Origin: an uncultured Hyphomonas sp.
Lineage (GTDB): Bacteria; Pseudomonadota; Alphaproteobacteria; Caulobacterales; Hyphomonadaceae
Length of the DNA: 64,000 nucleotides
Assembly: GCA_964644385.1 (NCBI GenBank)
Contig: CAZXVJ010000006.1
Span: 28,142-92,141, forward strand
Direction of reading: 5' to 3'
The notes beneath the pieces are model-generated. The model ran no database searches, was not told where the DNA came from, and was given only the letters and a program-made list of their open reading frames with translations. The translations under genes were made by a program, and so were the position numbers. Position 1 is the stretch's first letter, and each line of letters starts with the position of its first letter. Positions 1,157 through 17,418 of the stretch are shown here, piece by piece.

Positions 1157-1269
1157 CACCTAGTATCCGGCTTGAAAAATCATTGTCTATGTAAAAGAGA
1201 GATTGGAACTGCCGAAGAGTCGTGCGCCGCGGTAATGTTAGGGCATCCAACTTGAACCGGTGTCTCAAT

Positions 1270-3870
1270 CTAAGGCAGGCGCGCACATTGGCTTTGAGAT
1301 TGATACGCGTTGAACCGCGAAAGGTCTCCGCTGGATAAATAGTAGTCGGGGTTCGCCTCCACGCCCGCCCTGGTGAGCGCATCCACTTCAGCCAAAAGTG
1401 CACAAATTTCGCTGCGGCTGTCTTCCCTGAAAATCTCATCGCGGCGAACCATGATGAGCGCCTTTTGGAGCCGTAAGGCAATAGATTCATCCCTCACGAT
1501 CTCATTTTCTGGCTGAATATCCAGATAGGCATCTGGAATGGCGGTGGCGCGCGATATGCTTTCGATGGCTGCGTCCAATTCGAAAGACAGCCCCGCTTCG
1601 ACATAGGCTCTATTCTTATGCGTGGCATAAACCAATTGGAGATAGGAATAGGTGTTGTCATCGAAGGGCTTCAGCCGTTCAAGCAAAACCTCCGCCGTAT
1701 CCAAATGCTCTTTGAGCTCATTTGCGATCTTGAGGTTCTCCGCCATTCCGGGTTGTCGTTTCTGAGCCTCCAAAATAGCACGCCCGCCATCTGAGTAAGT
1801 TCCCAGACGTGTCTCAACATCTTGAAGGGATGGTCGCCAGTCCAGTCCCATCACCGTTGTCCCAATCATTGTCTCCAGTGCCCAAAAATAGGTGTATATG
1901 TCCTCCGGATTAGACGGGTTGTCCTCCATCCTGCTTTTTGCGGTTTGAAATCCCGTCTGCACCCACTCGCGTACCGTCTCATATTCTGACCTGTCTGAAA
2001 TCGGCACGGTATCATGTGGTGGATTCCACTTACTCGAAGAGATCGCGTTGCCGGCAAGGTACAGGAAAGACCAATGTGAAATGATGTGGTCGTTATTGGC
2101 CAAATCATCTGCATACAATGCCCTGACGTCTCGCTCGATCGCGATGATTTCATCATCTAACTCTGCGAAACCTTGAGCGTCTGATTTTGCGCCCCAAAGC
2201 TCGAAGCGAATATCCAATAACGCCGCTTTGATCTCGATATTGTCTGGATCATCCTGAAGCAGGTCTTCATAGATCGCGCGCGCCTGCTCTGCGGCTTCTG
2301 GCATTTGTGAGCGGTCATTGAAATGAAAACGATAGACGTAGGCGCGGTTGACCAACTCATCAGCAAACAATTTCCGAACCTGCGGGCTCGCGTCGGGTCT
2401 CCCGGCGAGATCCTTCAATATGTTTAGCGAAATCTCAAACTGTTTTAGGCCCTCCTCAGGGTCACCCAGATTTCGGCCGCCCGACTGGGTCAACAAGTCT
2501 CCCAGTTGTTTGCGGCCCCGTGCATGTTCCAGGTCTAGGCTCGAATCCGCTTTCGCAGCCTCGGCTATAATGTTCAAATAGCGCGAAGACGTTTCGCTAA
2601 CCTTCTGCTGCAATGGCAACGTTCCGGGCAACTTGCTGAGGTCCTCGCCAAGGTCATTAAGTAGGAAACTCGTCAACTCGCGGGTTTCGGCAAATCGCTG
2701 GTCAGCTTGAACCCTTGCCGTCTGCGCCCGCCCATACTGCACCAGCGTTACGGTCAGGGCGGCAACAAGACCAAGCAGCGCCGCGCTCGTCAGGCCCACG
2801 CCAACTTTGTGCCGCGACATGAACTTGCTCACAGCATATTTACGCCCACCATCCACAGCGCTTACAGCGCGCCCGTTTAGATAGTTCTGAACGTCCTCTA
2901 CTAAGCCGCTGACGCTTGTAAAACGGCGCTCAGGTGCCTCGGCGGATGCTTTTTGCATAATCGCGACCAGTTCACCGTCCTGATCATTCGGTTCAATGAG
3001 GGCTTCGAGAAGTTTGCCAAGCGAATACACATCCGACAACGTGTTCGCACGCGCGCCGACAGAACGCTCTGGCGCAGCAAACCCAGGTGTAAAGCTCAGA
3101 CTGGCCAGTGAACCCGATCCCGCCTTTGCCGGGGCCGCCTCATCGAGGGGTTTGGCGATCCCGAAATCAATCAGTTTCACAACACCCGACATATCCACCA
3201 AAACATTGGAGGGGGTGATATCCCGGTGAATGATCTGGTTTTGGTGCGCGTAGGCCACGGCCGAACACGCAGCGATGAACAGTTGAAGACGATCGTTTTT
3301 CGACAAACCGTTTTGGCTCGCCCATTTTGTGATGGGCGAGCCGTCAATAAACTCCATCACAATATAGGGCTCGCCAGTGTCTAACTCACCGCCATCATAC
3401 AGGCGGGCAATGTTAGGATGGCTAAGGCCAGCCAGTGTTTGGCGTTCAATCGCAAATCTCGCGACCAATTTCTCAGACAGTGCGCCCGGGCGAACCACCT
3501 TGATGGCAACCTGGTGATCAAAGTCTCCGCTCGCTCGTTCCCCGCGATACACAGCGCCCATCCCACCGCGACCAATGAGGTCAATTATCCTGTAGGCCCC
3601 AATTTTCTCAGGCACTTTCGTGTCATCCAATGCGTCGTTAAAGGCCCCGCCCGTTCGCAGTTCGACGCGCGCCTCATTATCTCTGGACAGGTAAGTTAGC
3701 GCCCGTTCTATAAGGGCGGCGTCGCCTCGTCCTTCAGCCTCGATCCAGGCGATACGATCATCGGAGGGCACATCCAACGATCGCTCAAACAGCTCCAGCG
3801 CCCGCGTTTCAAGACTATTTTTATCATCTGACATATCGTCCCCCGCCCTCAGGTAATCACATCGCGTCAC
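1270..3870 (-). CDS. Ser/Thr protein kinase of the ECF-sigma-associated type. N-terminal helix motif, Hanks kinase domain, one TM helix, then a ~470-aa extracytoplasmic helical repeat domain.
   Basis: VAIKVV (VAIK), HRDITPSNVLV, DFGIAKP and APE motifs. N-terminus ALELFERSLDVPSDDRIAWIEAEGRGDAALIERALTYL matches the conserved N-terminal segment of kinases encoded next to ECF sigma factors. TM at LTSAALLGLVAALTVTLV. An alternative start at MSDDKNS (about nt 3834) is possible. Confidence 0.85.
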   Translation of the reverse strand: MTRCDYLRAGDDMSDDKNSLETRALELFERSLDVPSDDRIAWIEAEGRGDAALIERALTYLSRDNEARVELRTGGAFNDALDDTKVPEKIGAYRIIDLIGRGGMGAVYRGERASGDFDHQVAIKVVRPGALSEKLVARFAIERQTLAGLSHPNIARLYDGGELDTGEPYIVMEFIDGSPITKWASQNGLSKNDRLQLFIAACSAVAYAHQNQIIHRDITPSNVLVDMSGVVKLIDFGIAKPLDEAAPAKAGSGSLASLSFTPGFAAPERSVGARANTLSDVYSLGKLLEALIEPNDQDGELVAIMQKASAEAPERRFTSVSGLVEDVQNYLNGRAVSAVDGGRKYAVSKFMSRHKVGVGLTSAALLGLVAALTVTLVQYGRAQTARVQADQRFAETRELTSFLLNDLGEDLSKLPGTLPLQQKVSETSSRYLNIIAEAAKADSSLDLEHARGRKQLGDLLTQSGGRNLGDPEEGLKQFEISLNILKDLAGRPDASPQVRKLFADELVNRAYVYRFHFNDRSQMPEAAEQARAIYEDLLQDDPDNIEIKAALLDIRFELWGAKSDAQGFAELDDEIIAIERDVRALYADDLANNDHIISHWSFLYLAGNAISSSKWNPPHDTVPISDRSEYETVREWVQTGFQTAKSRMEDNPSNPEDIYTYFWALETMIGTTVMGLDWRPSLQDVETRLGTYSDGGRAILEAQKRQPGMAENLKIANELKEHLDTAEVLLERLKPFDDNTYSYLQLVYATHKNRAYVEAGLSFELDAAIESISRATAIPDAYLDIQPENEIVRDESIALRLQKALIMVRRDEIFREDSRSEICALLAEVDALTRAGVEANPDYYLSSGDLSRFNAYQSQSQCARLP

Positions 3871-3966
3871 TGTATTAAAGGCGCAGACGTCTGCAATATC
3901 GGGTCAATAACTGAACGTTCTCAAACTCAAATTGACCCAAAGACAATCGCTCTCACGCCTATTCTA

Positions 3967-4719
3967 TTGTACGCCATTGTGGAATCGATCATGATCAAAC
4001 GTCCCAAGGCCCCTGACATGGCTCCTGTAATTTACGCTATCGGAGATGTTCATGGTGAAGCGCAGCGACTGCTTCAGTTGCATAGCTATATCTTTGAGCG
4101 CCATGAACAGATGCATGCAGACCGTCCTTTGCGCATGGTCCATCTCGGCGACTATGTTGACCGCGGCTCAAACAGCGCGGATGTCATCGACATCATAAGC
4201 GGGCTTGAAAACAGACAAGATATCTCATGCATCAATCTACTCGGAAACCACGAGGAAATGATGCTGAATGGCCTGACACGCGCCACAGCGACCGCTTATG
4301 ACAATTGGCTCATCAATGGCGGTAAAGCGACGATCGAAAGCTATAAAGCACGCGGAGAAGACTCCGTACCGAAGCGCCACATCAATTGGCTAAAAACCTT
4401 GTTGCCAATCCATATTGAAGACACGCCAAAGTTGATCTTCGTGCATGCAGGCATAAATCCATCGCTGTTTCCAAATGAATCTGACGCCACCTATCGTTGG
4501 ACGCGCTCGCCTCGCTTTTTCAACGTTTCCAATTGGTCCAATCCAGATCTCGACGGCTGGACGGTTGTGCATGGTCACACGCCGACAGATGACTTCTATC
4601 CCGAACACAGTTCGGCAAAGGCAGCGCGACTAAACATAGACACAGGCGCGGTATTTGGGGGACGGCTCACCGCAGCCATCTTTGTTCCTGGGGAAGACGT
4701 TCAGTTCATCTTTGCCTAA
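3967..4719 (+). CDS. PPP-family (metallophosphoesterase) Ser/Thr protein phosphatase, PrpA/PrpB / lambda-phosphatase-like.
   Basis: GDVHG, GDYVDRG and GNHE metallophosphoesterase motifs in canonical order. Divergent from the kinase and convergent with the ECF sigma gene. An alternative start at MIKRPK (nt 3991) is possible. Confidence 0.8.
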   Translation: MYAIVESIMIKRPKAPDMAPVIYAIGDVHGEAQRLLQLHSYIFERHEQMHADRPLRMVHLGDYVDRGSNSADVIDIISGLENRQDISCINLLGNHEEMMLNGLTRATATAYDNWLINGGKATIESYKARGEDSVPKRHINWLKTLLPIHIEDTPKLIFVHAGINPSLFPNESDATYRWTRSPRFFNVSNWSNPDLDGWTVVHGHTPTDDFYPEHSSAKAARLNIDTGAVFGGRLTAAIFVPGEDVQFIFA

Positions 4720-4749
4720 AGTGTGCGTTTGATGGGCCGGGATTTTCAA

Positions 4750-5340
4750 TTACACGGCGTCGTTTATCGCATCGAGTAACCACGCCCGCGCCACACGCCA
4801 TTGACGCTTCACCGTCGACTCAGATGTTCCGGTCACTTCGGCGACCTCTTCCATCGTCATGCCGCCAAAATACCTCAGCTCAACAATGCTGGCCTTCTCC
4901 GCGTCGATGGCTGCAAGACGTATCAGAGACTTTTCCAACACATCCATGTCCAACCGCTGCGAGCCCCCTTCGAAGCGCGTCACAAGCGTAACCTTGCGAT
5001 GGTGTCGCTTGTCGGTCTTCTTCTTGCGCGCATGATCAATCAACACCCGGCGCATTGCGCGCGCAGATAGCGCGAGGAAGTGGCTTTTGTCCGCCCATTC
5101 AATCTGATCCAGCTGAATTAAACGAAGCGCGGCCTCATTCACCAAATCTCCCGTAGTGAGAGAATTATTACTTTCTGCTCGCAGAAGCGCCGCGGAAACC
5201 TGCCTTAACTCCGAATACAACAGCTCAAACAACGCGTCGCGCGCAGCTGTTTCGCCGCCGCGCCAGCGCTGTAGCAGCGCATTGCTGTCTTCAGAATTTG
5301 TCACCATCGACCGTCTTCCCCCCACGCTAGTAAGCCGCAA
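4750..5340 (-). CDS. ECF-type RNA polymerase sigma factor (sigma-70 regions 2 and 4) of the Ser/Thr-kinase-associated group.
   Basis: LLQRWRGGETAARDALFELLYSEL (region 2), HFLALSARAMRRVLIDHAR, and VELRYFGGMTMEEVAEVTGTSESTVKRQWRVARAWL (region 4 HTH). Adjacent to a kinase carrying the matching N-terminal motif. A probable alternative start at MVTNSE (about nt 5307) exists. Confidence 0.85.
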   Translation of the reverse strand: MRLTSVGGRRSMVTNSEDSNALLQRWRGGETAARDALFELLYSELRQVSAALLRAESNNSLTTGDLVNEAALRLIQLDQIEWADKSHFLALSARAMRRVLIDHARKKKTDKRHHRKVTLVTRFEGGSQRLDMDVLEKSLIRLAAIDAEKASIVELRYFGGMTMEEVAEVTGTSESTVKRQWRVARAWLLDAINDAV

Positions 5341-5456
5341 CCACAGCGCTTTTGCAAGAAATCATGAGCTTGCGCGATTTATTTCAAATTCTCCTGACCC
5401 ATTACCCGGTCAAGCTGCGCCTCTAACCGTGACACCGAATTTTTTGGAGATACGAA

Positions 5457-6011
5457 ATGGAAGACGTCGTCAGTGCGATCCCACCCGAAGCGTGGCCCCT
5501 CATAGATATATTATTCAATGTCACGATGGCGGTGACAGGCATTTGGCTGGCATGGACAGTCTTTGTCATTTGGCGACGCAACTCATCGAATTTGACGTCC
5601 ATGAGCAGCGTCTCACCAAATCGAAAAGCAAAACCCGACTTTTTGTCCGTCGATGAAAAGGAACGGCGTGAAGCCATCAAACGCGGCGAAAAGTTTGAAA
5701 AAGACCTCGACACTCGTGAACGAGAAGACGCCAAAGCGCTCAAGAAGGCGGGACGGAAAAAGGAGACCAAAGCCGGTCGTATCGGCCGCATCGTCTCATT
5801 CGGAATGGCGTTATTTTCAATCGCCACGATGATCTCTGGAACGGTTTTTCAGGTCTCAATCATGGGTCGGTATTGGGAACAATATTCTGCCAGTGAGCGC
5901 CTTCTCTCCGTCATCCAGAACCACCCCATCGGCGTTTCGGTCACCGTGCTGGTCATTCTCTACAACGTCATCACTTTCATCACTAACTACACATCGGAAG
6001 GGAGTTCATAA
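5457..6011 (+). CDS. Hypothetical 3-TM membrane protein with a central charged (KR/E-rich) helix. First gene of the operon.
   Basis: GGAGA RBS 7 nt upstream of the ATG. Hydrophobic segments at about aa 14-38, 113-135 and 157-178. Its stop is 1 nt before the next start. Confidence 0.5.
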   Translation: MEDVVSAIPPEAWPLIDILFNVTMAVTGIWLAWTVFVIWRRNSSNLTSMSSVSPNRKAKPDFLSVDEKERREAIKRGEKFEKDLDTREREDAKALKKAGRKKETKAGRIGRIVSFGMALFSIATMISGTVFQVSIMGRYWEQYSASERLLSVIQNHPIGVSVTVLVILYNVITFITNYTSEGSS

Positions 6012-6012
6012 C

Positions 6013-7608
6013 ATGGCTTCTGAACCAGTCATTCTAAGCGACCCACGGATCATCGCCGAATTTTTGCGCCAAACAGAATTCCAGGGTTTTTTCGAAAAGC
6101 GCTTCGCCGTTCCCCCAGACTATGCCGCCCTACTCTTTAAAAACGGACAGCTGATTGATGCCTTCAAAGGCGGACACTTCTCAGTTGGCGGCTTGGTCGA
6201 CAAGCTCAAAGGCGTCATTGGCGGCTCCACTCATGTCTCAATGATGATCGCGGATCTGAAACCGTTTCAAGTGCAAACGATGATTCAAGGCCGCAGCAAA
6301 GACAATGTCGATATTGTGGGCGTTGCCACACTGGAACTGCAGGTCAATCCAGATAAGCCGTCGAACTTCTTGGGCATGATGCACGGCGTGGATCGCGCAC
6401 CGGGCGACGCAAACGAGTTGGGCCGCAAATCTCTGACAAAAGGTCAGATTCTTGCGCGCATTCGCCCTCACCTATCAGACCGCGTTTTTGAAGCCACGAT
6501 TGGCCGGATCGACGCAATTGATCTGCGCGGTGACGTTGGCCTGCAAGACAAATTGCAAGCTGACATGATGCAAGAGGTGGAACGGGTCGCCGGCGATCTT
6601 GGTCTCTTGGTTCGGGCGGCGTCTATCGAATGGGCGGAAAACGCTGAAGAAGCCGCGCATCAGGCCCGGGCTGACGCGTCCCGCCAGCAAGACAATATCG
6701 ATTTTGAGATCGAAATGGCAAGACGCTCAGCTGAGCGCGCTCAAGACGCTATGATCTACAACATCAACAGCGAAGTCGATATCGCCAAGCTTCAGAACGC
6801 CAGTGAAGACGAACTCAAACACATGGCGCTCAACAGCGAGATCACCTTCCTGGACGCCCGCGAAGACGCAAAACGTCGTCAGGAAATGGATGAGTTGGAT
6901 CACCAGATTGCCTTTCTTGAAAAAGAACGCCGAACAACGTTTCAGAACGCGATTGAAACCGCGGAAAACGAAACGGATCTCAAACAGATCCAGCAGAAGC
7001 AGCTCAAACTCGACACCGAGATGGATGCGATGCGCCAGTTGCATCTGCAAAAAATGCAGCAATCCGGCGCATACAGCGAAGCGGAAGTCACCGCAAAAAT
7101 CCAAAAGCAACAGCGTGAACACATCTCTGCCCTGCAAGACATTGAGTTACGTGCAGAAAAAGTGCGTTCCGAATTAAAGCGAATTGAACGCAAAGACTCC
7201 CAGGACTTTGAACTAAAAAAACTTGGCGTTCAGCAGTCGATGAGTTCGGAACAAATTCTGGCTGTTCAGGCGGGGCTATCGCCGGATGTCGCTGCCGTAC
7301 TGGCCGAGCGAGCCCGCGCCGATTCCGATGGCAATGAAACCACGATGAAACTGATGCGCGAAATGGTAGAGGCAGCAACCGCCAGCCAAATCCGCTCAGA
7401 GGCGCAGGCCCGCGAGATGTTTAAAATGGGCATGGATGGCACGGTCGGCGTCGCAGCAGGCGCAGGAGGGGGACGCGCAAGCGGAGCGGCTGGGTCATCC
7501 AATAACGACTCAGCCGCTCAATCCTCAGTCGACTGTCCAAAATGCAGCACCACAGCGGACGCAATGTCAAAATTTTGCGCCAAGTGCGGCCACAAGCTTC
7601 GGACCTGA
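6013..7608 (+). CDS. SPFH (band-7/flotillin-like) domain protein with a long coiled-coil and a C-terminal zinc ribbon.
   Basis: GGAAGGGAG RBS before the ATG at 6013. The six-frame ORF starts at 5893, but the internal Met 41 at 6013 is the supported start. SPFH core-like TMIQGRSKDNVDIVGVATLELQVN (compare stomatin ILTKD.V.V.VD.VVYYRV). About 250 aa of heptad-like E/K/Q/R-rich sequence follow. C-terminus is VDCPKCSTTADAMSKFCAKCGHKL (CxxC..CxxC). Confidence 0.6.
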   Translation: MASEPVILSDPRIIAEFLRQTEFQGFFEKRFAVPPDYAALLFKNGQLIDAFKGGHFSVGGLVDKLKGVIGGSTHVSMMIADLKPFQVQTMIQGRSKDNVDIVGVATLELQVNPDKPSNFLGMMHGVDRAPGDANELGRKSLTKGQILARIRPHLSDRVFEATIGRIDAIDLRGDVGLQDKLQADMMQEVERVAGDLGLLVRAASIEWAENAEEAAHQARADASRQQDNIDFEIEMARRSAERAQDAMIYNINSEVDIAKLQNASEDELKHMALNSEITFLDAREDAKRRQEMDELDHQIAFLEKERRTTFQNAIETAENETDLKQIQQKQLKLDTEMDAMRQLHLQKMQQSGAYSEAEVTAKIQKQQREHISALQDIELRAEKVRSELKRIERKDSQDFELKKLGVQQSMSSEQILAVQAGLSPDVAAVLAERARADSDGNETTMKLMREMVEAATASQIRSEAQAREMFKMGMDGTVGVAAGAGGGRASGAAGSSNNDSAAQSSVDCPKCSTTADAMSKFCAKCGHKLRT

Positions 7609-7612
7609 TCTG

Positions 7613-9187
7613 ATGTCATCATCACCTCTTGAAATCTGTTCGTCTTGCGGCGCCACTATACCCGAAAACGCACGCTTTTGCGTTGAATGCGGCATCACAC
7701 TGGGATCTGGTCCGGTCGATACGCCGACGATGCACACGGTCAGCGGTCTCGAAACCGTCTTGCCGGACGATCAGGGCCACGCGCTCGCCAATGCGTCGTC
7801 ATCTGTTCTCAGCCCAGGCGACGTCATCGCTGACAAGTTTGAGATCGAGCGCGTCATCGGCCAAGGCGGCATGGGCACAGTCTACAAAGCAAAGGAGATT
7901 CTATCCGGCCAAACGGCAGCATTGAAAGTCATCTCGCAAAAGTTTGTCGGCAGCGAAAAAGCCGTCAAACGCTTGATCGAAGAAGGCATGACCACGCGGG
8001 GCATTTCACACCCCAATGTGGTCCAGATCTTCGACATCGGTCTGCACGGCACCCAGCCCTACATTGCCATGGAGTATTTAGACGGGCGGCCACTGCATGT
8101 TTGGCGCGGTGAGAAGATGGCCAATGGTGAAGCGGTTCCCGTTCGCGTCGCCGGCCAGATTATCAAAGAGGTGCTCCACGGACTTCAAGCCGCTCATGAT
8201 GCAGGGGTTATCCACCGCGACCTGAAGCCTGAAAACATCATGCTGATGGATGAGCCGTCGCAATCCTCTGCAAAAATCAAAATCGTTGATTTCGGCATTG
8301 CGCTCGCCACCAAGACAGCCACAGCGTCTGGCACCGGAACTGGGCTCGGCACGCAGCTTTACATGGCGCCAGAGCAGATCCGAAACGCCAATGCAGCAAA
8401 CGCCTCAGCAGATCTCTACTCATTGTCGAAAATCTTCTACGAATTGATCGTTGGTGTGCTGCCAACAGGTCATTGGCAACCGCCATCAGGCGGGCGTTCA
8501 GATGTGCCACGCGGCATAGATATGCTGATCGAGAAAGGTCTATCCGCCAATCGAGACATGCGCCCACAAAGCGCTGCGGCGTATAAGCAAGCGCTTATCG
8601 CGGGCATGAACCATCAGATGCCGTTACCCAAGCAGGATACAGGCAAGAATTGGAAAACGCCCGTCCTGCTCGCGGGTGGCGCACTGGCGGTCATACTGGG
8701 CGCAGTGGTCATCAACGACGCTGGATCATCGCCCCATCAATCTGGTGAACTGCAGCGTGATCAAAACGACTCAACTTTCGAGTTTTCGCCACCCAATCCC
8801 GAACGCGTTGACGTATCGCCGACAGAGCCGGTCACGCGCGATGTGCAGATTGGCCCTGGCACAGAAACGCCTCAGCCGCGCTTTGCCTACTATAATGGCC
8901 GCTGGGCTGACCCCTTCGGCGGAGCCTATGACATCACCATAAATGACAATGGAAACTTATCAGGCAATGGATATTTGGGAGATGGCACAAGCGTCTCAAT
9001 TGCAGGCCAACTGAGCGGCAACAATCTATCTTATTCACTTGGCATGTTCGGTGAAGCGTTCGCTGAGGGGACAGCAACGAAGACAGACCAGTGTCACTTC
9101 AACTTTACGACCGCCAATTACTTGACCGGCGGCTATTCTAACGGTGTCTTTCACGTCAATCACCAACCTGGGCAACCGTGTCCATGA
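7613..9187 (+). CDS. Zinc-ribbon-containing Ser/Thr protein kinase with one TM helix and a ~140-aa periplasmic C-terminal domain.
   Basis: Internal Met 60 of ORF 7436..9187 sits 5 nt after the upstream stop. N-terminal CSSCGATIPENARFCVECG zinc ribbon. Kinase motifs GQGGMGTVYKA, ALKVI, HRDLKPENIML, DFGIA, APE. TM at VLLAGGALAVILGAVVI. Confidence 0.85.
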   Translation: MSSSPLEICSSCGATIPENARFCVECGITLGSGPVDTPTMHTVSGLETVLPDDQGHALANASSSVLSPGDVIADKFEIERVIGQGGMGTVYKAKEILSGQTAALKVISQKFVGSEKAVKRLIEEGMTTRGISHPNVVQIFDIGLHGTQPYIAMEYLDGRPLHVWRGEKMANGEAVPVRVAGQIIKEVLHGLQAAHDAGVIHRDLKPENIMLMDEPSQSSAKIKIVDFGIALATKTATASGTGTGLGTQLYMAPEQIRNANAANASADLYSLSKIFYELIVGVLPTGHWQPPSGGRSDVPRGIDMLIEKGLSANRDMRPQSAAAYKQALIAGMNHQMPLPKQDTGKNWKTPVLLAGGALAVILGAVVINDAGSSPHQSGELQRDQNDSTFEFSPPNPERVDVSPTEPVTRDVQIGPGTETPQPRFAYYNGRWADPFGGAYDITINDNGNLSGNGYLGDGTSVSIAGQLSGNNLSYSLGMFGEAFAEGTATKTDQCHFNFTTANYLTGGYSNGVFHVNHQPGQPCP

Positions 9188-10317
9188 GCGCCGTGTTGAC
9201 CCCTTCCCCAAGCGCCGTTTGTTGCAACCGATCTGCACTCGACTGTGACGCGGGCTTTTGTACCGATTGCGGAAAATCGCTGATCCGCTGCATGGCCTCG
9301 GCAGAGTGTGGGTCATTGCTGGATGACCAAGGCGTCTGCCAGATTTGCGTCAGACCAGAATTGGCTCTTGATGCGGGCGCGGCAGCAACGGTTCGAGAGG
9401 GCGGCAAACTCGCTCTACCGCTCACCATCAAAAACGCGTCCCCCGTCGGTCGCCCCCTTTTCATCACGGGGCTTTGGATGAAGGAAGACGATGGAGAGTT
9501 GCGGGAAGTTCCGCTTCCCTTTAAGCGCCTGGACTCCGGCGAAGCGTCGAATGTTGGCATCCGTACAGGTGTGCTAGAATATGCTGGCGTGCACCAGGTG
9601 GATCTCCGCATTGCCGTTGCCACGCGCTATCAGTGGCGCCAGGAAGAATACGTCTTCTCCAGCGCGATCATCTTCCCGGTCGAGACCAAAGACCCAGACG
9701 GCCCGGTCACGAATATTCATGTCGATGGCGACGCAGGCCCCGGCTTCACTGTCTACAACCCAACGCGCATTGAGAACGAGCGCGCAACCGGCAACAGCGC
9801 GCACATTACCCCCATTTCGCTCAATATCCGGCGCGCCGATCAGTCTGAACGCACCTTAAAAAAACGAGGCTACGAATCTGGCCTGAGCGTGCCCCGGACG
9901 GTGACCTTCGAGTGGCAAGGTTTTGAAGACGGCGACGCCCCCTTTGTCGGCCCAATCTTAAGACCATCAGGGCTGCTTTGCTTTGGCCGCAACGCCACAT
10001 CGTTGGAGACAGGTGCAAACGATGCGCGTCTGCTTGTCAGCGGCCCAGACGGAATCGACGAAGCGGCGTCCCTTGCCATTTCTCGCCAACATTTCACGCT
10101 CTACGTGGAAAGCGGTCGACTTATGTTGCGCGTCGACAGCCGCTACGGGCTGCGTGTCAATGATCGGTCTCTTCAGCGCACCGAAACAAGCCTCCTCCAA
10201 AGCGGGGACATCATCCGCCCTTTGAGAAAATCACCCGACGCGCTGGCCATTTCTGTGCAATTCGAAACCCAGCAAGACATCGTCACGCTGATTGTCATAC
10301 GAAAGCAATCGACATGA
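9184..10317 (+). CDS. Cys-rich/zinc-ribbon N-terminal protein with a C-terminal FHA (phosphothreonine-binding) domain.
   Basis: ATG 9184 overlaps the kinase stop (ATGA); GTG 9178 is an alternative start. N-terminus has 9 Cys in 60 aa (CDAGFCTDCG..CGSLLDDQGVCQIC). C-terminus GRN..11..LLVSGPDG..6..SRQHFTLYVESGRLMLRVDSRYGLRVNDRSL..LQSGDIIRPL fits the FHA signature (GR..SRxH..StNG-like..N..GD.I). Confidence 0.75.
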   Translation: MSAVLTPSPSAVCCNRSALDCDAGFCTDCGKSLIRCMASAECGSLLDDQGVCQICVRPELALDAGAAATVREGGKLALPLTIKNASPVGRPLFITGLWMKEDDGELREVPLPFKRLDSGEASNVGIRTGVLEYAGVHQVDLRIAVATRYQWRQEEYVFSSAIIFPVETKDPDGPVTNIHVDGDAGPGFTVYNPTRIENERATGNSAHITPISLNIRRADQSERTLKKRGYESGLSVPRTVTFEWQGFEDGDAPFVGPILRPSGLLCFGRNATSLETGANDARLLVSGPDGIDEAASLAISRQHFTLYVESGRLMLRVDSRYGLRVNDRSLQRTETSLLQSGDIIRPLRKSPDALAISVQFETQQDIVTLIVIRKQST

Positions 10318-10844
10318 CACATGCATCGACATTGATCCTGCGCATAGCGCCAGTCGTCTTCATCGGCTGTCTCGCCTTAGCGGCTTGCAAACCGAGCAAC
10401 GTGCTCCGCCCTGACCAGTCACCCACACCGTCATTGACACAAAAAGAGCCAGCGGCACCGATCGCCAAACCAGCACCCCGTATTGGTTTTCCTTCCGGCG
10501 TTTGGGTCGAAGGAGATGACACAGTCTGGTCTGTTGCTGTCGACGGGAACCGCGTCCTTGCCAAAGGAGAATGCGGCCTCGGACAAGGCCTCACGCTTAC
10601 CGGAACAATAAAGAACGTCGCGCTGACCTATACCGTCAACACAGATGACCAAACCGGCATCGGAAAAGGACAAGCCGTCCTCGTCGGCGATGACCACGCT
10701 TACTTCGATGTCAGCGGCGGCATGCAAACCCACGGGCTGTTTCACTTCAATCACACCGATTTGAAAACAGCCTGCAGCCCAAAATTTACGCGCCGCGGAC
10801 CGATTGATATTCGCCCAGCGCCCAACACACGCCCCGGAGAGTGA
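10314..10844 (+). CDS. Predicted lipoprotein of unknown function.
   Basis: Signal peptide plus lipobox LALAAC. ATG overlaps the upstream stop (ATGA). No recognisable catalytic motif. Gly/Thr-rich beta-like composition. Confidence 0.55.
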   Translation: MTHASTLILRIAPVVFIGCLALAACKPSNVLRPDQSPTPSLTQKEPAAPIAKPAPRIGFPSGVWVEGDDTVWSVAVDGNRVLAKGECGLGQGLTLTGTIKNVALTYTVNTDDQTGIGKGQAVLVGDDHAYFDVSGGMQTHGLFHFNHTDLKTACSPKFTRRGPIDIRPAPNTRPGE

Positions 10845-10846
10845 GC

Positions 10847-11911
10847 ATGACAAACGCCCAAACCCGATACCGCATTGATGGCTATCTTCGTACCGATGAC
10901 GACCAACCCATCGCAACGCTCGAAATGACCAGCAAACCTAGCTTATCTGATTGGATAGATCTCAGGCCGCTCTGCTCTCCTGTTGAAGATCAGGGGCATG
11001 TCGGCTCATGCACCGCGAACGCCATTGTCGGTGCACTCGAATATCTGCAAATCGCCAGCGGCGGTCCATCTACGGATCTCTCGAGGTTGTTCGTCTACTA
11101 CAATGCCCGCAGGTTCTCAGATCGAGAGGGGGATGACTGCGGCGCCTCTATGGCGCACGCAATGGCATCGCTCCTCGCATTCGGGGCGTGCCCAGAATCG
11201 GTTTGGCCCTATGATGAGGCACGTTGGAGTAAAAAGCCGCCCGACGGCTGCTATCAGAGCGCCGTGCCTTTTGCAGGCCTGCACTATGCCAGCGTCGCCC
11301 CCAATGATGAGCGGAAATACGTCCTGGCTTCAGGCCTACCCATTATCTTTGGTATGGGTGTGCCGGAACATCTCTTGATGAACGTTGGCGCACAAACCGG
11401 CTACATGCCCGCCCCGGCAGACGGCAATTGGGAGCCCGCATCCAGCGGGCATGCAATGCTGATTGTTGGGTACAGCGACGCGAACAATGCATGGCTGGTT
11501 AGAAATTCATGGGGAACCGGTTTCGGTGAAGGCGGTCACGTTTGGATCGACTATGCGGTTATGGATCACTATGCGATCGGTGCGCAGGATTTTTGGACGG
11601 TCGGTCCGCTCGATCGGAACAAATTCTTCCGTCTTGCCGGTCCCAGTTCGCAATCTGTACAGCAACACGCCGTCCAGCACGCCACGCCGGCGACCCGCAA
11701 CTTTATGGATCAAGTCCGCAAACATCTTCGCCACGACCTCGAAACGCATCTCGACGCGACCCGTCAGGGCCTGCGCGATCGCCTTCGCGGTCCCGGAGTG
11801 GGCGGCGGATACGACAAAGGCCCCGGCGCGGGGGGCGGCTATGACAAAGGACCGGGCGTTGGCGGCGGATATGACCGCGGCCCCGGCGCAGGAGGTGGAT
11901 ACGATGACTAA
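10847..11911 (+). CDS. Papain-like cysteine peptidase (C1 family), copy 1. No signal peptide or prodomain, with 4x GPGxGGGYD(K/R) C-terminal repeats.
   Basis: DWIDLRPLCSPVEDQGHVGSCTANAI (papain mature N-terminus pattern DWR..VTPVKNQG.CGSCWAF; Q and C spaced 6 apart). HAMLIVGY (catalytic His). NSWGTGFGEGGHVWI (Asn plus Trp, compare NSWGTGWGENGYIRI). GGAGAG RBS 6 nt upstream of ATG 10847; GTG 10841 is an alternative start. Confidence 0.8.
   Translation: MTNAQTRYRIDGYLRTDDDQPIATLEMTSKPSLSDWIDLRPLCSPVEDQGHVGSCTANAIVGALEYLQIASGGPSTDLSRLFVYYNARRFSDREGDDCGASMAHAMASLLAFGACPESVWPYDEARWSKKPPDGCYQSAVPFAGLHYASVAPNDERKYVLASGLPIIFGMGVPEHLLMNVGAQTGYMPAPADGNWEPASSGHAMLIVGYSDANNAWLVRNSWGTGFGEGGHVWIDYAVMDHYAIGAQDFWTVGPLDRNKFFRLAGPSSQSVQQHAVQHATPATRNFMDQVRKHLRHDLETHLDATRQGLRDRLRGPGVGGGYDKGPGAGGGYDKGPGVGGGYDRGPGAGGGYDD
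11789..11908 (+). repeat. In-frame tandem repeat of four 30-nt units encoding GPG(V/A)GGGYD(K/R/D).
   Basis: Units ggtcccggagtgggcggcggatacgacaaa, ggccccggcgcggggggcggctatgacaaa, ggaccgggcgttggcggcggatatgaccgc, ggccccggcgcaggaggtggatacgatgac read directly from the sequence. Confidence 0.85.
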
Positions 11912-12911
11912 ACTAATTGACGGCGTCCTATTGGGCGGCTGGATTCCAGACGAGGTTGACGAGGCGATTCCAACACTCAAAACCGTAGCCGACATTCAAA
12001 CCCCGAACCTGGTCGACCTGAGGCCAAAATGCTCCCCGGTTGAAAATCAAGCGGCTGTCGGCTCCTGCGTCGCCAATGCTATCGTCGGCGCTCTCGAATA
12101 TCATCAGATCCGAAATGGCTCGACCATGAAAGATCTCTCCCGTCTCTTCGTTTATTACAATGCGCGCCGCCTCGGCGAGCGTATTGGCGAGGCAGGCACC
12201 ACCATTCAGCGGGCGATGGCCGCCATCCTCGGATGGGGCGCCTGCCCAGCTTCGATGTGGCCCTACCAAACCGCCATGGTAGATGAGCGTCCCAGCGAGG
12301 CTTGCTACAAAGCGGCGCAAATGTTCAAAGGCGTCCAGATTGCCCAAACCAGCTGGGGCGCTGGATGCCGTGAAGCGCTCGCCAACGGTTTGCCGGTTGC
12401 GTTCGGCATGAATGTCGCCATGCAAGACTTCAACAGCAATGGTCCGGCTGGCCAAACCGGCATGCTCAAGCCCCCATTGGACGGCAACTGGGCAGACCCA
12501 AGCGGCGGGCATGCCATGCTGATCGTGGGATATGACGACGCGCGCCACGCGTGGCTCGTGCGAAATTCATGGGGAGAGGCCTGGGGAGAAGGCGGGCACG
12601 TCTGGATCGACTATGATTATCTCAACCACTACATCGCATATGGACGCCGCGCCGCGCCATACGTGATTGGCCAAATTCAAGATATTCGAGCCTTTGAATT
12701 GAGCGGTGCCACAACAGAACAAGTTGTGGCGCAGGCTCTCTCGCGCGCGCCAGCGCAGGTTCAGAGCGAAATGGGCGCGCTCCGCCAACATCTTGCTTCA
12801 GACCTGGATTCAAGCCTCTCAGACGCCCGCAAAAGCATCCGCGATAGGCTACGTGGGCCGGGCGCAGGTGGCGGCTATGATAAAGGCCCTGGCGCGGGCG
12901 GAGGATATTAA
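11904..12911 (+). CDS. Papain-like cysteine peptidase (C1 family), copy 2, paralog of the upstream gene. 2x GPGAGGGYD repeats at the C-terminus.
   Basis: Internal Met 148 of ORF 11463..12911. Start overlaps the upstream stop by 8 nt. LVDLRPKCSPVENQAAVGSCVANAI, HAMLIVGY and NSWGEAWGEGGHVWIDY keep all catalytic residues. Tail motif LRDRLRGPGAGGGYDKGPGAGGGY is shared with copy 1. Confidence 0.8.
   Translation: MTKLIDGVLLGGWIPDEVDEAIPTLKTVADIQTPNLVDLRPKCSPVENQAAVGSCVANAIVGALEYHQIRNGSTMKDLSRLFVYYNARRLGERIGEAGTTIQRAMAAILGWGACPASMWPYQTAMVDERPSEACYKAAQMFKGVQIAQTSWGAGCREALANGLPVAFGMNVAMQDFNSNGPAGQTGMLKPPLDGNWADPSGGHAMLIVGYDDARHAWLVRNSWGEAWGEGGHVWIDYDYLNHYIAYGRRAAPYVIGQIQDIRAFELSGATTEQVVAQALSRAPAQVQSEMGALRQHLASDLDSSLSDARKSIRDRLRGPGAGGGYDKGPGAGGGY
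12854..12908 (+). repeat. In-frame tandem repeat of 1.8 units of the same 30-nt GPGAGGGYDK motif at the end of the second peptidase gene.
   Basis: gggccgggcgcaggtggcggctatgataaa then ggccctggcgcgggcggaggatat, followed directly by the stop codon. Confidence 0.85.
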
Positions 12912-12912
12912 A

Positions 12913-13404
12913 ATGCCAAATCCCATTCTCGCCGCGAACTCAGAACGCCAAAATCGGCTGCGACGCAACGGACCGCTCCGTAAAGCCATGACCGTTTTCC
13001 CCTTATTGGTTCCGCCAATCGGAATTTACATGATGATGGCGCTGTTTTCGGGAGATGGCGGCATTCAAGGCTCGCTCGATACAACGGTCTTCAATCTTTC
13101 AATGCTGTCGGGCGCACGCTGGGAATTGCGCGCCGGAGATCTATTGTCCCTTTTCGCCCTTCTCATGCTCTCCATCGAGATTGTGAAATCGACTAACACA
13201 AAATCTGGCGCCATCGCCAATCATGCCGCCTCAATGGGGCTTTTGCTCTTCTGCTTGATCGGATTTCTGGTGTTCCGCAGTTTCGCGACATCTGTGTTCT
13301 TTCTGATCACGATGATGTGCCTTTTAGATGTGCTGGCCGGTGTTATGGTCACAATCGTCTCCGCGCGCCGCGATTTCGGTGTTGGAGACGGGTTTGGTGG
13401 TTAG
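12913..13404 (+). CDS. Hypothetical small membrane protein with about 4 TM helices. Last gene of the operon.
   Basis: Internal Met 70 of ORF 12706..13404, 1 nt after the upstream stop. Hydrophobic segments VFPLLVPPIGIYMMMALF, LLSLFALLMLSI, MGLLLFCLIGFLVF, VFFLITMMCLLDVLAGVMV. Confidence 0.5.
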   Translation: MPNPILAANSERQNRLRRNGPLRKAMTVFPLLVPPIGIYMMMALFSGDGGIQGSLDTTVFNLSMLSGARWELRAGDLLSLFALLMLSIEIVKSTNTKSGAIANHAASMGLLLFCLIGFLVFRSFATSVFFLITMMCLLDVLAGVMVTIVSARRDFGVGDGFGG

Positions 13405-13533
13405 CGATCACATGACAGACCCATCGGGCTCATTTTCTACTCCATTTGGCCTCCAACACATCAATTTTGGGTCTATTTCGGCAACCTCTCTCAGGAATTG
13501 TGCAATTGCGCCAAATATCAGCGGTGACAGGGT

Positions 13534-13562
13534 TTGACAGCCTGCCCCAATTGGTGTTTACC
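13534..13562 (+). promoter_or_regulatory. Candidate promoter of rplU-rpmA (TTGACA -35 with a weak -10).
   Basis: TTGACA at 13534-13539. 17-nt spacer, then GTTTAC-like element. About 70 nt upstream of the rplU ATG, which has a GGAAGG RBS. Weak call. Confidence 0.25.
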
Positions 13563-13633
13563 CGCCTCTTCGGCGTGAACTGGCAACAGCTCGCGCCTCA
13601 ATCTATTTTTATTCCACCCGGAAGGACACGCGC

Positions 13634-14281: not shown

Positions 14282-14320
14282 TCACGCTACACTGCCAACA
14301 TTGACGATAAGGAGCACACA

Positions 14321-14590: not shown

Positions 14591-14645
14591 CGGCTGATCC
14601 TTCGGCTGCGGAAACGTGGCCCGATCAATACCGATCATCCCAAAA

Positions 14646-14680
14646 GGGAGACAGGGCCACTGTCTCCCTTTTTGTTTGTC
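14646..14680 (+). terminator. Rho-independent terminator after rpmA.
   Basis: GGGAGACAGggccaCTGTCTCCC hairpin followed by TTTTTGTTTG. Confidence 0.7.
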
Positions 14681-14706
14681 TCCCCAAATTGTTGAGGACT
14701 GGGCCA

Positions 14707-17418
<2,712 letters not shown>

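What the first reader, a model, noticed from the sequence alone, without database searches (positions are those of the whole stretch)
1270..5456. Kinase-associated ECF sigma factor, its cognate Ser/Thr kinase and a PPP phosphatase, divergent from the 8-gene operon
Seen in sequence:
- ECF sigma (regions 2 and 4) at 4750-5340.
- A kinase whose N-terminus (LELFERSLDVP..R.AWIEAEGRGDAALIERALTYL) is the conserved segment found on kinases encoded next to ECF sigmas.
- A GDxHG/GDxxDRG/GNHE phosphatase between them.

Established knowledge (from memory): one ECF group (ECF43 in the Staron/Mascher scheme) lacks anti-sigma factors and is genomically linked to Ser/Thr kinases.

Inference: the 116-bp divergent intergenic region 5341-5456 may hold the sigma-dependent promoter driving the downstream operon, making that operon the likely regulon.
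Basis: partly seen in the sequence, partly recalled or inferred. Interest (0 to 1): 0.6.

Follow-up and report, generated by a model that had tools for sequence, protein, structure and literature searches.

The report
Kinase-switched ECF sigma factor module
This is a marine alphaproteobacterial copy of an already described kind of gene switch, a sigma factor turned on by a membrane Ser/Thr kinase instead of released from an anti-sigma factor, here with a partner phosphatase and a clearly conserved target promoter in front of the neighbouring 8-gene operon.

Summary
Window 1270-5456 encodes:
- an ECF sigma factor (4750-5307, minus strand) that passes the curated cut-offs of PF07638 and TIGR02999;
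- a transmembrane Hanks-type kinase (1270-3834, minus) with the conserved N-terminal three-helix segment;
- a lambda-type PPP phosphatase (3991-4719), which lies on the opposite strand.

- The N-terminal kinase segment occurs in 76 of 81 sigma-centred sequences from many phyla. It also aligns with PknS of Xanthomonas citri, a kinase shown experimentally to phosphorylate an ECF43 sigma factor.
- 26 orthologous sigma/operon intergenic regions share an invariant ECF-type promoter, TGAMCC-N17-CGCC, aimed at the operon (window 5395-5422).
- The same motif precedes the kinase gene and, more weakly, the phosphatase gene. This suggests positive and negative feedback.

One deviation stands out. The sigma-2.2 motif is TTGD. 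The canonical ECF43 phospho-threonine column holds Gly, and the Asp of the fourth column is retained.

A review reports that an ECF43 sigma/kinase pair from Hyphomonas neptunium has already been tested, so this is a new member of a known kind. No step of phosphorylation or transcription is shown here.

The parts
1270..3834 (-). STK1: transmembrane Hanks-type Ser/Thr kinase, 854 aa. Proposed cognate kinase of the sigma factor.
   Evidence: Pkinase E 3.2e-33. Best solved relative is 9eed_A, which is PknS residues 1-364, E 2e-44. A gene call of 854 aa was made on identical contigs.
3655..3834 (-). N-terminal three-helix module of STK1 (residues 1-60).
   Evidence: Translation. AlphaFold2 predicts helices 7-19, 24-34 and 39-60, with pLDDT above 90 for residues 11-50. 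A profile of the module finds it in 76 of 81 sigma-centred sequences.
2998..3594 (-). Catalytic domain of STK1, with an intact G-loop and intact VAIK, HRD, DFG and APE motifs.
   Evidence: Translation. Pfam match.
3880..3906 (-). Candidate sigma-dependent promoter of STK1: TGACCC-N17-CGCC.
   Evidence: Exact pattern hit. Scores 23.8 bits with the position-weight matrix. The same motif precedes separately transcribed kinase genes in L032 and L037-L040.
3933..3960 (+). Candidate, weaker sigma-dependent promoter of the phosphatase gene: TGACCC-N17-CGCCT. It sits back to back with the kinase promoter.
   Evidence: Exact pattern hit, but below 14 bits with the matrix. The -35 boxes form an inverted pair, GGGTCAAT/ATTGACCC. 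Orthologous sites occur in L002, L004 and L006-L008.
3991..4719 (+). PPP-family (lambda-phosphatase-like) metallophosphatase, 242 aa, with no signal peptide.
   Evidence: Metallophos E 3.9e-15. GDVHG, GDYVDRG and GNHE are present. Solved relatives are 4j6o and 1g5b. Linked to the sigma gene in 16 of the 40 clade loci.
4750..5307 (-). ECF sigma factor of the PF07638/TIGR02999 (ECF43) type, 185 aa.
   Evidence: 100% identical to P0001. Gene call.
5146..5157 (-). Sigma-2.2 motif T51-T52-G53-D54, at the position of DAED in canonical ECF sigma factors and of STTA/QTTA in ECF43.
   Evidence: Translation. Alignment of 81 sigma factors. Literature motifs from PMC8999054 and PMC13147305.
4975..4989 (-). 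[quoted passage not shown] Holds further candidate phospho-acceptors.
   Evidence: Translation. KVTLVT/S is conserved in the clade. The EcfK linker sites T104, T106, S108 and S110 are described in PMC13147305.
5395..5422 (+). Conserved ECF-type promoter of the divergent operon: -35 TGACCC at 5395-5400, a 17-nt spacer, and -10 CGCCT at 5418-5422.
   Evidence: Invariant blocks in 26 aligned orthologous intergenic regions. Fixed distance of about 31-37 nt to the o1 start codon. Scores 27.0 bits.
5457..13404 (+). Proposed regulon, an 8-gene operon. o1 is a membrane protein. o2 is a coiled-coil protein with a zinc ribbon. STK2 is a kinase with a zinc ribbon. o4 has zinc ribbons and an FHA domain. 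o5 is a lipoprotein. o6 and o7 are two papain-like C1 peptidases. o8 is a protein with four membrane helices.
   Evidence: Synteny with the sigma gene in L001-L031, L033 and L038.

Best explanation
This is an ECF43-type phospho-switch.

Proposed mechanism, step by step:
1. The sigma factor (4750-5307) is made in a form that binds RNA polymerase core poorly. Three of the four acidic sigma-2.2 positions (DAED in ordinary ECF sigma factors) are uncharged here (TTGD).
2. The membrane kinase STK1 senses a periplasmic or envelope cue through its roughly 490-residue C-terminal domain.
3. STK1 engages the sigma factor, probably through its conserved N-terminal three-helix module.
4. STK1 phosphorylates the sigma factor on Thr51 or Thr52 in region 2.2, and/or on Thr107 or Thr110 in the linker.
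5. The added negative charge lets the sigma factor bind core polymerase and start transcription at TGACCC-N17-CGCCT promoters.

In this window those promoters precede:
- the 8-gene operon;
- the kinase gene itself, giving positive feedback;
- more weakly, the PPP phosphatase gene, giving negative feedback. The phosphatase would reset the system by dephosphorylating the sigma factor and/or the kinase.

What is shown: gene content, catalytic motifs, family membership, conservation of the kinase module, and conservation, placement and orientation of the promoter motif.

What is inferred: that this sigma factor reads that motif, that STK1 phosphorylates it, which residues accept phosphate, and what the phosphatase acts on.
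For: Family and kinase:
- The sigma factor passes the curated TIGR02999 and PF07638 thresholds.
- STK1's best solved relative is PknS(1-364), E 2e-44 against 5e-32 for PknB. The alignment includes the N-terminal module.
- PknS directly phosphorylates the ECF43 sigma factor EcfK (PMC13147305).
- The module is present in 76 of 81 sigma-centred sequences and within 4 kb of the sigma gene in 66.

Sigma-2.2 motif:
- The sigma-2.2 alignment shows loss of the DAED charges. That loss is the basis of the published mechanism (PMC8999054, PMC8103513).

Promoter:
- The motif is invariant in 26 orthologous intergenic regions, at a fixed distance from the o1 start codon.
- The exact core pattern has 4 hits in the 64 kb window, against 1.0 expected. 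Three of them lie, correctly oriented, in the two short intergenic regions of this cluster.
- The other pattern and matrix hits in the window lie inside rplC and an AMP-binding gene.
- The motif stays with o8, the phosphatase gene and the kinase gene when these are relocated in other genomes.
- In L038 the kinase, o8, the phosphatase and the operon form one string divergent from the sigma gene.
- Related TGAGCC-N17-CGC sites lie next to ECF43 sigma genes in distant phyla.

Precedent: a review states that an ECF43 sigma factor of Hyphomonas neptunium is activated by its kinase (PMC8999054, citing Iyer et al. 2020).
Against: - No experiment and no transcript data bear on this locus.
- The canonical ECF43 phospho-threonine column is Gly53 here, and Asp54 is retained. 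The published single-site mechanism therefore cannot be transferred unchanged, and the sigma factor might have basal activity without phosphorylation.
- ECF-group HMMs were not available, so ECF43 membership rests on Pfam and TIGRFAM surrogates.
- The phosphatase promoter scores below the matrix threshold. It is absent by pattern search in the closest relative, L083.
- The phosphatase's nearest solved relatives include a polynucleotide phosphatase domain, so its substrate is not established.
- In the closest relative the kinase is not adjacent to the sigma gene.
Confidence: 0.75

Rival explanations
1. The conserved TGACCC-N17-CGCCT promoter is read by a different alternative sigma factor encoded elsewhere in the genome. 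On this view the sigma factor here controls other, unlinked genes, and the divergent arrangement is only synteny.
For: No direct evidence ties the motif to this sigma factor. ECF sigma factors often have similar AAC/CGT-like promoters. No copy of the motif precedes the sigma gene itself in the window, so the usual autoregulation argument is not available.
Against: The motif keeps a fixed geometry next to this sigma gene in about 30 genomes. It follows the kinase, the phosphatase and o8 to new positions. In Hellea it flanks the same sigma/kinase/phosphatase core but drives different genes. Related motifs sit beside ECF43 sigma genes in other phyla. High-scoring copies in this 64 kb window are confined to the cluster.
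Confidence: 0.1
2. The sigma factor is not strictly dependent on phosphorylation. Because Asp54 is retained and the canonical phospho-Thr column is Gly, it may be constitutively competent, or controlled mainly by its abundance. The kinase and phosphatase would then act chiefly on other substrates, for example the FHA protein or STK2 of the operon.
For: The TTGD motif. EcfK (QATE) also retains an acidic residue, and its T51A variant remains functional (PMC13147305). The operon encodes its own kinase and an FHA phospho-threonine reader. In the closest relative the kinase is not adjacent.
Against: Three of the four acidic positions are still missing. Ser/Thr residues at motif columns 1 and 2, and the KVTLVT linker, are conserved throughout the clade. 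The kinase with the sigma-associated module is linked to the sigma gene in most genomes.
Confidence: 0.12
3. The metallophosphatase is not a protein phosphatase. It would be a nucleotide or polynucleotide phosphatase (ApaH-, PrpE- or Pnkp-like), sitting next to the sigma gene for unrelated reasons.
For: All NCBIfam matches are below their cut-offs. The best ones are the Pnkp phosphatase domain (5.5e-18) and ApaH (1e-13), ahead of PrpA/PrpB-type protein phosphatase (3.1e-12). The top solved relative is the Pnkp phosphatase domain.
Against: Lambda Ser/Thr phosphatase and eukaryotic PP1 and BSU1 are also matched. The gene is linked to the sigma/kinase pair in 16 of the 40 clade loci, in several different arrangements. 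It carries, or inherits through o8, the same promoter motif in several genomes.
Confidence: 0.15

Closest known systems
EcfP (VP0055) / PknT of Vibrio parahaemolyticus (ECF43; Iyer et al. 2020, as described in PMC8999054 and PMC8103513)
   Same: - An ECF sigma factor with no anti-sigma factor.
- A linked membrane Ser/Thr kinase.
- Loss of the acidic DAED motif in sigma-2.2, so phosphorylation is needed to bind RNA polymerase core.
   Different: - EcfP has STTA, with the second Thr phosphorylated. Here the motif is TTGD, with Gly at that column and Asp retained.
- The regulon differs: polymyxin resistance there, and here an operon encoding a kinase, an FHA protein, papain-like proteases and membrane proteins.
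- A PPP phosphatase and sigma-type promoters on the kinase and phosphatase genes are not part of the description of EcfP/PknT that I could read.
EcfK / PknS of Xanthomonas citri (PMC13147305; PDB 9eed)
   Same: - The kinase architecture matches: N-terminal helical segment, Hanks domain, one membrane helix, and a large extracytoplasmic domain.
- PknS is the best solved match to STK1, and the match includes the N-terminal segment.
- EcfK also keeps one acidic residue (QATE) and uses linker phosphosites as well. The conserved KVTLVT linker here is comparable.
   Different: - The EcfK phospho-Thr column is still Thr.
- The target is a type VI secretion system.
- No cognate phosphatase has been identified for that system.
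ECF43 sigma/kinase pair of Hyphomonas neptunium (reported in PMC8999054 as shown by Iyer et al. 2020)
   Same: Same bacterial family. Sigma factors of six named Hyphomonas species are 64-78% identical to the one here, and they carry the same S/T-T-G-D motif and the same divergent operon.
   Different: I could not read the primary paper or retrieve the H. neptunium locus, so orthology is not established. The kinase here belongs to the subtype found in Hellea and Robiginitomaculum, not to the Hyphomonas subtype.
Canonical ECF sigma / anti-sigma pairs (for example RpoE/RseA)
   Same: A two-domain (sigma-2 plus sigma-4) sigma factor, and a promoter with a -35 box, a 17-nt spacer and a short C/G-rich -10 box.
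   Different: - There is no anti-sigma gene.
- The sigma-2.2 acidic motif is degenerate.
- No autoregulatory promoter was detected upstream of the sigma gene.
Lambda phosphatase and the PrpA/PrpB family of bacterial PPP phosphatases
   Same: The GDxHG, GDxxDRG and GNHE metal-binding motifs, a similar size of about 220-240 aa, and a cytoplasmic location.
   Different: Similarity is low (E 3e-8 to lambda phosphatase) and below the NCBIfam cut-offs for PrpA/PrpB. The substrate is unknown.

Membership tests
ECF43 sigma factors (kinase-regulated ECF group) | Sequence membership. The proper test is the ECF Hub group HMM. The surrogates used here are PF07638 Sigma70_ECF and TIGR02999 Sig-70_X6. | tested here: met
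   PF07638, 122.9 bits against a cut-off of 21.1. TIGR02999, 181.6 bits against a cut-off of 126.15. ECF Hub HMMs were not available, and equating these models with ECF43 rests on my memory of Staron et al. 2009.
ECF43 sigma factors (kinase-regulated ECF group) | A Ser/Thr kinase gene in the conserved neighbourhood. | tested here: met
   STK1 lies 928 nt from the sigma gene in the window. A kinase carrying the N-terminal module lies within 4 kb of the sigma gene in 66 of 81 sequences.
ECF43 sigma factors (kinase-regulated ECF group) | No co-encoded anti-sigma factor. | tested here: met
   The neighbours are a phosphatase and a membrane protein with three helices and no anti-sigma or zf-HC2 match. 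Absence elsewhere in the genome cannot be tested.
ECF43 sigma factors (kinase-regulated ECF group) | The acidic DAED motif of sigma-2.2 is replaced by uncharged residues. | tested here: inconclusive
   The motif is TTGD. Columns 1-3 are uncharged, but the Asp of column 4 is retained, as is the Glu in EcfK's QATE (PMC13147305).
ECF43 sigma factors (kinase-regulated ECF group) | Thr at the phospho-acceptor column (column 3 of QTTA; present in 88% of ECF43 members). | tested here: not met
   Gly53 in the window. Gly or Ser throughout the Hyphomonadaceae clade, L001-L040. Thr in most of L041-L080, which read Q[PTA]TA. Thr or Ser occupies columns 1 and 2 instead. This feature holds for most members but not all, so failing it does not exclude membership.
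ECF43 sigma factors (kinase-regulated ECF group) | Activity depends on phosphorylation by the cognate kinase. | not testable with these tools
   Needs in vitro phosphorylation and genetics.
PknS/PknT-like sigma-factor kinases | An intact Hanks-type catalytic domain. | tested here: met
   Pkinase E 3.2e-33. G-loop, VAIK, HRD, DFG and APE are all present.
PknS/PknT-like sigma-factor kinases | An N-terminal helical segment of about 60-80 residues ahead of the kinase domain. | tested here: met
   It aligns with PknS from residue 13. Profile match E 1.1e-21. The three-helix model has pLDDT above 90 for residues 11-50.
PknS/PknT-like sigma-factor kinases | A single membrane helix followed by a large extracytoplasmic domain. 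| tested here: met
   A hydrophobic segment at residues 343-361, followed by about 490 residues with a weak TPR match. The topology itself is inferred.
PPP-family Ser/Thr phosphatases (lambda phosphatase, PrpA/PrpB) | The GDxHG, GDxxDRG and GNHE motifs within a calcineurin-like fold. | tested here: met
   GDVHG, GDYVDRG and GNHE. Metallophos E 3.9e-15.
PPP-family Ser/Thr phosphatases (lambda phosphatase, PrpA/PrpB) | A score above the curated cut-off of a protein-phosphatase model (PRK11439 or PRK09968). | tested here: not met
   47 bits against a cut-off of 326, and 28 bits against 332. It is a distant relative only, and nucleotide-phosphatase models score similarly.

The most novel reading that the evidence does not exclude
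In the Hyphomonadaceae branch of ECF43 the activating phosphate would not go on the canonical threonine, which is Gly here. It would go on the neighbouring Thr51 or Thr52 and/or on the linker residues Thr107 or Thr110, next to a retained Asp.

The sigma factor would also drive the genes of both its kinase and a lambda-type PPP phosphatase. The module would then be a self-amplifying and self-resetting switch.

Its output would be a second signalling tier (STK2 plus an FHA protein), two cytoplasmic papain-like proteases and small membrane proteins.

The conserved N-terminal three-helix module of the kinase would be the autonomous sigma-docking unit. That would fit the occurrence of module-only ORFs beside kinase-less ECF43 sigma genes in some Lysobacterales.
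Probability: 0.3. Interest if true: 0.55.

Novelty: new member of a known kind. Interest (0 to 1): 0.35.

Why it matters
Control of sigma factors by direct phosphorylation has only two or three studied examples. For none of them could I find, in the literature available here, a published consensus promoter or a cognate phosphatase.

This locus and its 30 or so orthologues offer three things:
- a sharply defined candidate promoter, TGAMCC-N17-CGCC;
- a candidate reset phosphatase;
- a natural variant of the sigma-2.2 phospho-site.

Together these make the specificity and feedback logic of the system testable in culturable Hyphomonas and Henriciella strains.

The finding does not change the current picture of ECF43 regulation. 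It extends that picture to one more clade and proposes a regulon for it.

Tried and rejected

2. Is the operon an anti-phage defence system? PADLOC matched only the generic kinase domains (PD-T4-6, mad6) and nothing else in the operon. Rejected as uninformative.

3. Is there a separate promoter for o8 at 12989-13016? That site has an 18-nt spacer, not 17, and overlaps the likely o8 start codon. Treated as chance.

4. Are there other regulon members in the window? The hits at 27213-27239 and 62537-62570 lie inside an AMP-binding enzyme gene and inside rplC. Treated as chance.

5. Does the sigma gene have its own promoter? The E. coli-type scan found nothing convincing upstream of it. A second conserved block, GTCGCAAAA...GACAAG in the orthologues, lies on the sigma side of the intergenic region. 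It may be a housekeeping-type promoter or an operator and remains unresolved.

6. Primary literature. Iyer et al. 2020 is not held. The supplements of PMC13147305 do not mention Hyphomonas. No supplements are held for PMC7826278. I therefore could not check whether the tested H. neptunium pair is the orthologue, nor whether an ECF43 promoter motif has been published.

7. Does motif column 1 (Ser versus Thr) track the kinase subtype? The window and the Hellea group have TTGD and the Hellea-type kinase. All 39 closest sigma relatives have STGD. This amounts to a single independent event, so it is only a hint.

8. Sequence searches of o2 and o4 against solved structures found nothing useful.

Full report
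**1. What is in the sequence**

The region 1270-5456 holds three genes. All three lie between housekeeping genes: panK at 431-1156 on one side, and rplU, obg and proB from 13634 on the other.

- The minus-strand ORF 4750-5340 is an ECF sigma factor.
  - It matches PF07638 Sigma70_ECF (E 1.9e-35).
  - It scores 181.6 bits on TIGR02999 Sig-70_X6, against a curated cut-off of 126.15.
  - Regions 2 and 4 are both matched.
- The minus-strand ORF 1270-3870 is a Hanks-type Ser/Thr kinase (Pkinase E 3.2e-33).
  - Its G-loop and its VAIK, HRD, DFG and APE motifs are intact.
  - It has one hydrophobic helix at residues 343-361.
  - About 490 further residues follow, with only a weak TPR match.
- The ORF 3967-4719 is a calcineurin-like metallophosphatase with GDVHG, GDYVDRG and GNHE.
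  - It lies on the plus strand, so it is convergent with the sigma gene and divergent from the kinase gene.

Start codons need correcting.
- A database protein 100% identical to the sigma factor is 185 aa long (P0001).
- Independent gene calls on identical metagenome contigs give 185, 242 and 854 aa for the sigma factor, phosphatase and kinase.
- The starts are therefore ATG 5307, ATG 3991 and ATG 3834.
- The sigma/operon intergenic region is 149 bp (5308-5456).

The source organism is a member of the Hyphomonadaceae. The closest sigma factors, at 70-89% identity, come from Henriciella and Hyphomonas genomes and MAGs.

**2. The kinase's N-terminal segment**

I checked it in four ways.

- I extracted the sequence upstream of the kinase domain from kinases near the sigma gene in 80 genome loci. 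The segment aligns from Hyphomonadaceae to Acidobacteriota, Gemmatimonadota, Lysobacterales and other groups.
  - Hits from the large protein collection gave the consensus MTPERWQQIxxLFxxALExxPxERAAFLxxACAGDxxLRREVESLL.
- A profile of the segment, searched against all six-frame ORFs, finds it in 76 of 81 sequences.
  - It lies within 4 kb of the sigma gene in 66 of them.
  - It lies in an ORF with an HRD kinase motif in 65.
- The best solved relative of STK1(1-343) is 9eed_A, E 2e-44 against 5e-32 for PknB. The alignment starts at residue 13 of both proteins, so it includes this segment.
  - By its length and description, 9eed_A is PknS(1-364) of Xanthomonas citri.
  - PknS is the kinase shown to phosphorylate the ECF43 sigma factor EcfK (PMC13147305).
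- AlphaFold2 predicts three helices (7-19, 24-34, 39-60), with pLDDT above 90 for residues 11-50.
  - The PknS paper likewise reports a predicted bundle of three to four helices that was disordered in the crystal.

The function of the segment is therefore unknown. Docking of the sigma factor is my inference from its strict association with these sigma factors.

**3. The sigma-2.2 motif departs from the ECF43 consensus**

The published mechanism is as follows (PMC8999054, PMC8103513, PMC13147305).
- Ordinary ECF sigma factors contact the beta-prime clamp through an acidic DAED motif in region 2.2.
- In ECF43 this motif is uncharged: STTA in EcfP, and QTTA in the consensus.
- Phosphorylation of the second Thr restores the negative charge.
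- EcfK has QATE and also needs phosphosites in the linker.

An alignment of 81 sigma factors shows the following.
- The distant loci L041-L080 mostly read Q[PTA]TA followed by LV[HN]EA.
- The whole clade L001-L040 (mostly Hyphomonadaceae, with one locus annotated Parvularculaceae) reads [ST][TS][GS]D followed by LVNEA, with no gap between the conserved Leu and LVNEA.
- In the window the motif is T51-T52-G53-D54.

So the canonical acceptor column is Gly, the fourth acidic position is kept, and Thr or Ser occupies columns 1 and 2.

The linker segment KVT107-L-V-T110-R is conserved in the clade. It corresponds in position to the EcfK linker sites.

The window is the only one among its 40 closest relatives with Thr rather than Ser in column 1. 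Its kinase also belongs to the subtype found with TTGD sigma factors in Hellea, Robiginitomaculum and relatives. This is one independent event and no more than a hint.

**4. The promoter**

I aligned the intergenic region between the sigma gene and the first operon gene (o1) from the window and 25 loci.

- Most of the region varies freely.
- Two blocks are invariant: TGA[A/C]CC and CGCC(T). They are exactly 17 nt apart, oriented toward o1, preceded by an A/T-rich stretch, and end 31-37 nt before the start codon in most loci.
- In the window these are TGACCC at 5395-5400 and CGCCT at 5418-5422. A GGAG ribosome-binding site at 5446-5449 and the ATG at 5457 follow.

This is the layout of an ECF-type promoter.

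The exact core pattern TGAMCS-N17-CGCC has four hits in the 64 kb window, where 1.0 is expected.
- 5395-5421 (+), before o1.
- 3880-3906 (minus), 46 nt before the kinase start codon.
- 3933-3959 (+), 32 nt before the phosphatase start codon.
- 27213-27239, inside an AMP-binding enzyme gene, which I treat as chance.

The two sites in the kinase/phosphatase intergenic region are back to back, and their -35 boxes form an inverted pair, GGGTCAAT/ATTGACCC.

A position-weight matrix built from the o1 and o8 sites gives these scores:

| Site | Score |
|---|---|
| o1 promoter | 27.0 bits |
| Kinase promoter | 23.8 bits |
| Phosphatase promoter | below 14 bits |
| Site inside rplC | 15.3 bits |

Across genomes the motif travels with the cluster's genes.
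- It precedes o8 wherever o8 is a separate transcription unit.
- It precedes the phosphatase gene in L002, L004 and L006-L008.
- It precedes the kinase gene in L032 and L037-L040.
- Where the phosphatase gene follows o8 (L017, L024, L026, L038), it inherits o8's promoter.

In Hellea (L039) the same sigma, kinase and phosphatase core is flanked by motif copies that drive different genes: a 1286-aa autotransporter and a 489-aa secreted protein. The regulon is therefore plastic, while the regulatory core and the motif are constant.

Related TGAGCC-N17-CGC(C/A)T sites lie next to sigma genes of this family in Lysobacterales and other phyla.

No such motif precedes the sigma gene in the window. The sigma-proximal half of the intergenic region has a different conserved block, which I did not resolve.

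**5. Synteny**

- The divergent pairing of the sigma gene with o1-o2-(STK2/FHA)-(o5)-C1 peptidase is conserved in L001-L031 and L033.
- In L038 the kinase, o8, the phosphatase gene and the operon form a single string divergent from the sigma gene. This is the strongest argument that they function together.
- The kinase's position varies:
  - directly downstream of the sigma gene on the same strand (L003-L005, L016-L031);
  - divergent from it (L032, L034, L036-L040);
  - beyond the phosphatase gene (window, L002, L006-L008);
  - at the far end of the operon (L009-L015).
- In the closest relative (L083, 89% identical sigma factor) the kinase is not adjacent to the phosphatase gene.
- The phosphatase gene is linked in 16 of the 40 clade loci and in none of the distant ones.

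**6. The operon (proposed regulon)**

With refined start codons the eight genes are as follows.

| Gene | Coordinates | Description |
|---|---|---|
| o1 | 5457-6011 | Membrane protein with three helices |
| o2 | 6013-7608 | 531 aa, coiled coil, C-terminal zinc ribbon |
| STK2 | 7613-9187 | Zinc ribbon, kinase domain, membrane helix, periplasmic domain |
| o4 | 9178-10317 | Zinc ribbons and an FHA domain |
| o5 | 10314-10844 | Lipoprotein, homologous to the periplasmic domain of STK2 |
| o6 | 10841-11911 | Papain-like C1 peptidase |
| o7 | 11904-12911 | Papain-like C1 peptidase, paralogue of o6 |
| o8 | 12985-13404 | Membrane protein with four helices |

- o6 and o7 lack signal peptides and have Gly-rich GPGAGGGYD tails. 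Their best solved relative is 3ois, E 1e-34.
- Apart from generic kinase-domain matches, there are no defence-system matches.
- I did not work out what the operon does.

**7. Comparison with what is known, and verdict**

The system matches the described ECF43 kinase-regulated sigma factors in these respects:
- family membership, by surrogate models;
- kinase linkage;
- kinase architecture;
- absence of an anti-sigma factor;
- a degenerate acidic motif.

It fails one common feature: the Thr at the phospho-acceptor column, which is present in 88% of members.

A review reports that an ECF43 pair from Hyphomonas neptunium, a member of the same family, has already been shown to work through kinase activation (PMC8999054). 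I could not read the primary paper.

What appears to be new in detail:
- a sharply conserved candidate promoter motif;
- its presence on the kinase gene and, more weakly, on the phosphatase gene;
- the lambda-type PPP partner;
- the TTGD variant of the sigma-2.2 motif.

I could not check whether a promoter motif or a phosphatase partner is already described in Iyer et al. 2020.

I rate this a new member of a known kind and of moderate interest.

Noticed in passing
L009 about 3335-3368 (+); equivalent sites in L011-L015: A good copy of the TGACCC-N17-CGCC motif (18-26 bits) lies on the strand opposite to the operon. It sits in the roughly 320-bp gap between the stop codon of the C1 peptidase gene and the start of the kinase gene, and points into the 3' end of the peptidase gene. 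No plausible ORF follows it. It may drive an antisense or small RNA.
   Followed up: partly
L047 3895-4173 (-), L073 8690-8992 (-), L067 9666-10136 (-): In three Lysobacterales loci, short ORFs divergent from a sigma gene of this family encode only the kinase N-terminal module and then stop (...TGEFLEIPVKLSMR*). No kinase domain follows. L053 and L042 have a kinase ORF at the same position (complete in L053; cut short after the kinase domain begins in L042). The module may work as a free-standing sigma-binding protein, or these may be decayed kinase genes.
   Followed up: partly
L047 4791-4824 (-), L073 9583-9616 (-): A related promoter-like motif lies just downstream of the sigma gene's stop codon and points antisense into the gene.
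   Followed up: no
window 5330-5365; equivalent block in L016-L031: There is a second conserved block in the sigma-proximal half of the intergenic region. In Hyphomonas it reads TGTCGCAAAA...N...CGACAAG and is partly palindromic. In the window it reads GCCGCAAC...TTTTGCAAG. It could be the sigma gene's own housekeeping-type promoter or an operator.
   Followed up: partly
window 8789-9163 and 10314-10844: The o5 lipoprotein is homologous to the periplasmic C-terminal domain of STK2 (tblastn 25% identity, E 6e-7; shared G-x-FH-x-NH motif). A free copy of the kinase's sensor domain is thus encoded in the same operon.
   Followed up: no
window 10841-12911: Two tandem paralogous papain-like C1 peptidases (47% identical) lack signal peptides. 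Both end in Gly-rich GPGAGGGYD(K) repeats. Their best solved relative is 3ois, E 1e-34.
   Followed up: partly
L039 11416-15276 (+) and 5704-7173 (-): In a Hellea MAG the same sigma/kinase/phosphatase core has motif promoters that drive different genes. One is a 1286-aa autotransporter with a very long polyproline linker. The other is a 489-aa secreted protein rich in Gln, Asn and Pro. The 8-gene operon is not there.
   Followed up: partly
proteins P0132, P0230, P0239, P0221: Many top hits of the N-terminal-module profile are proteins of 64-126 aa. Most are kinase fragments that end in the G-loop. A few sit on long contigs (127-478 kb) and could be genuine free-standing copies.
   Followed up: no
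window 1001-6000 compared with 11001-16000: The sigma/kinase/phosphatase part of the cluster has a somewhat lower G+C content (0.52-0.54) than the flanking housekeeping genes (0.59-0.62). The cluster also sits at different chromosomal positions in related genomes: panK and rplU flank it only here.
   Followed up: no
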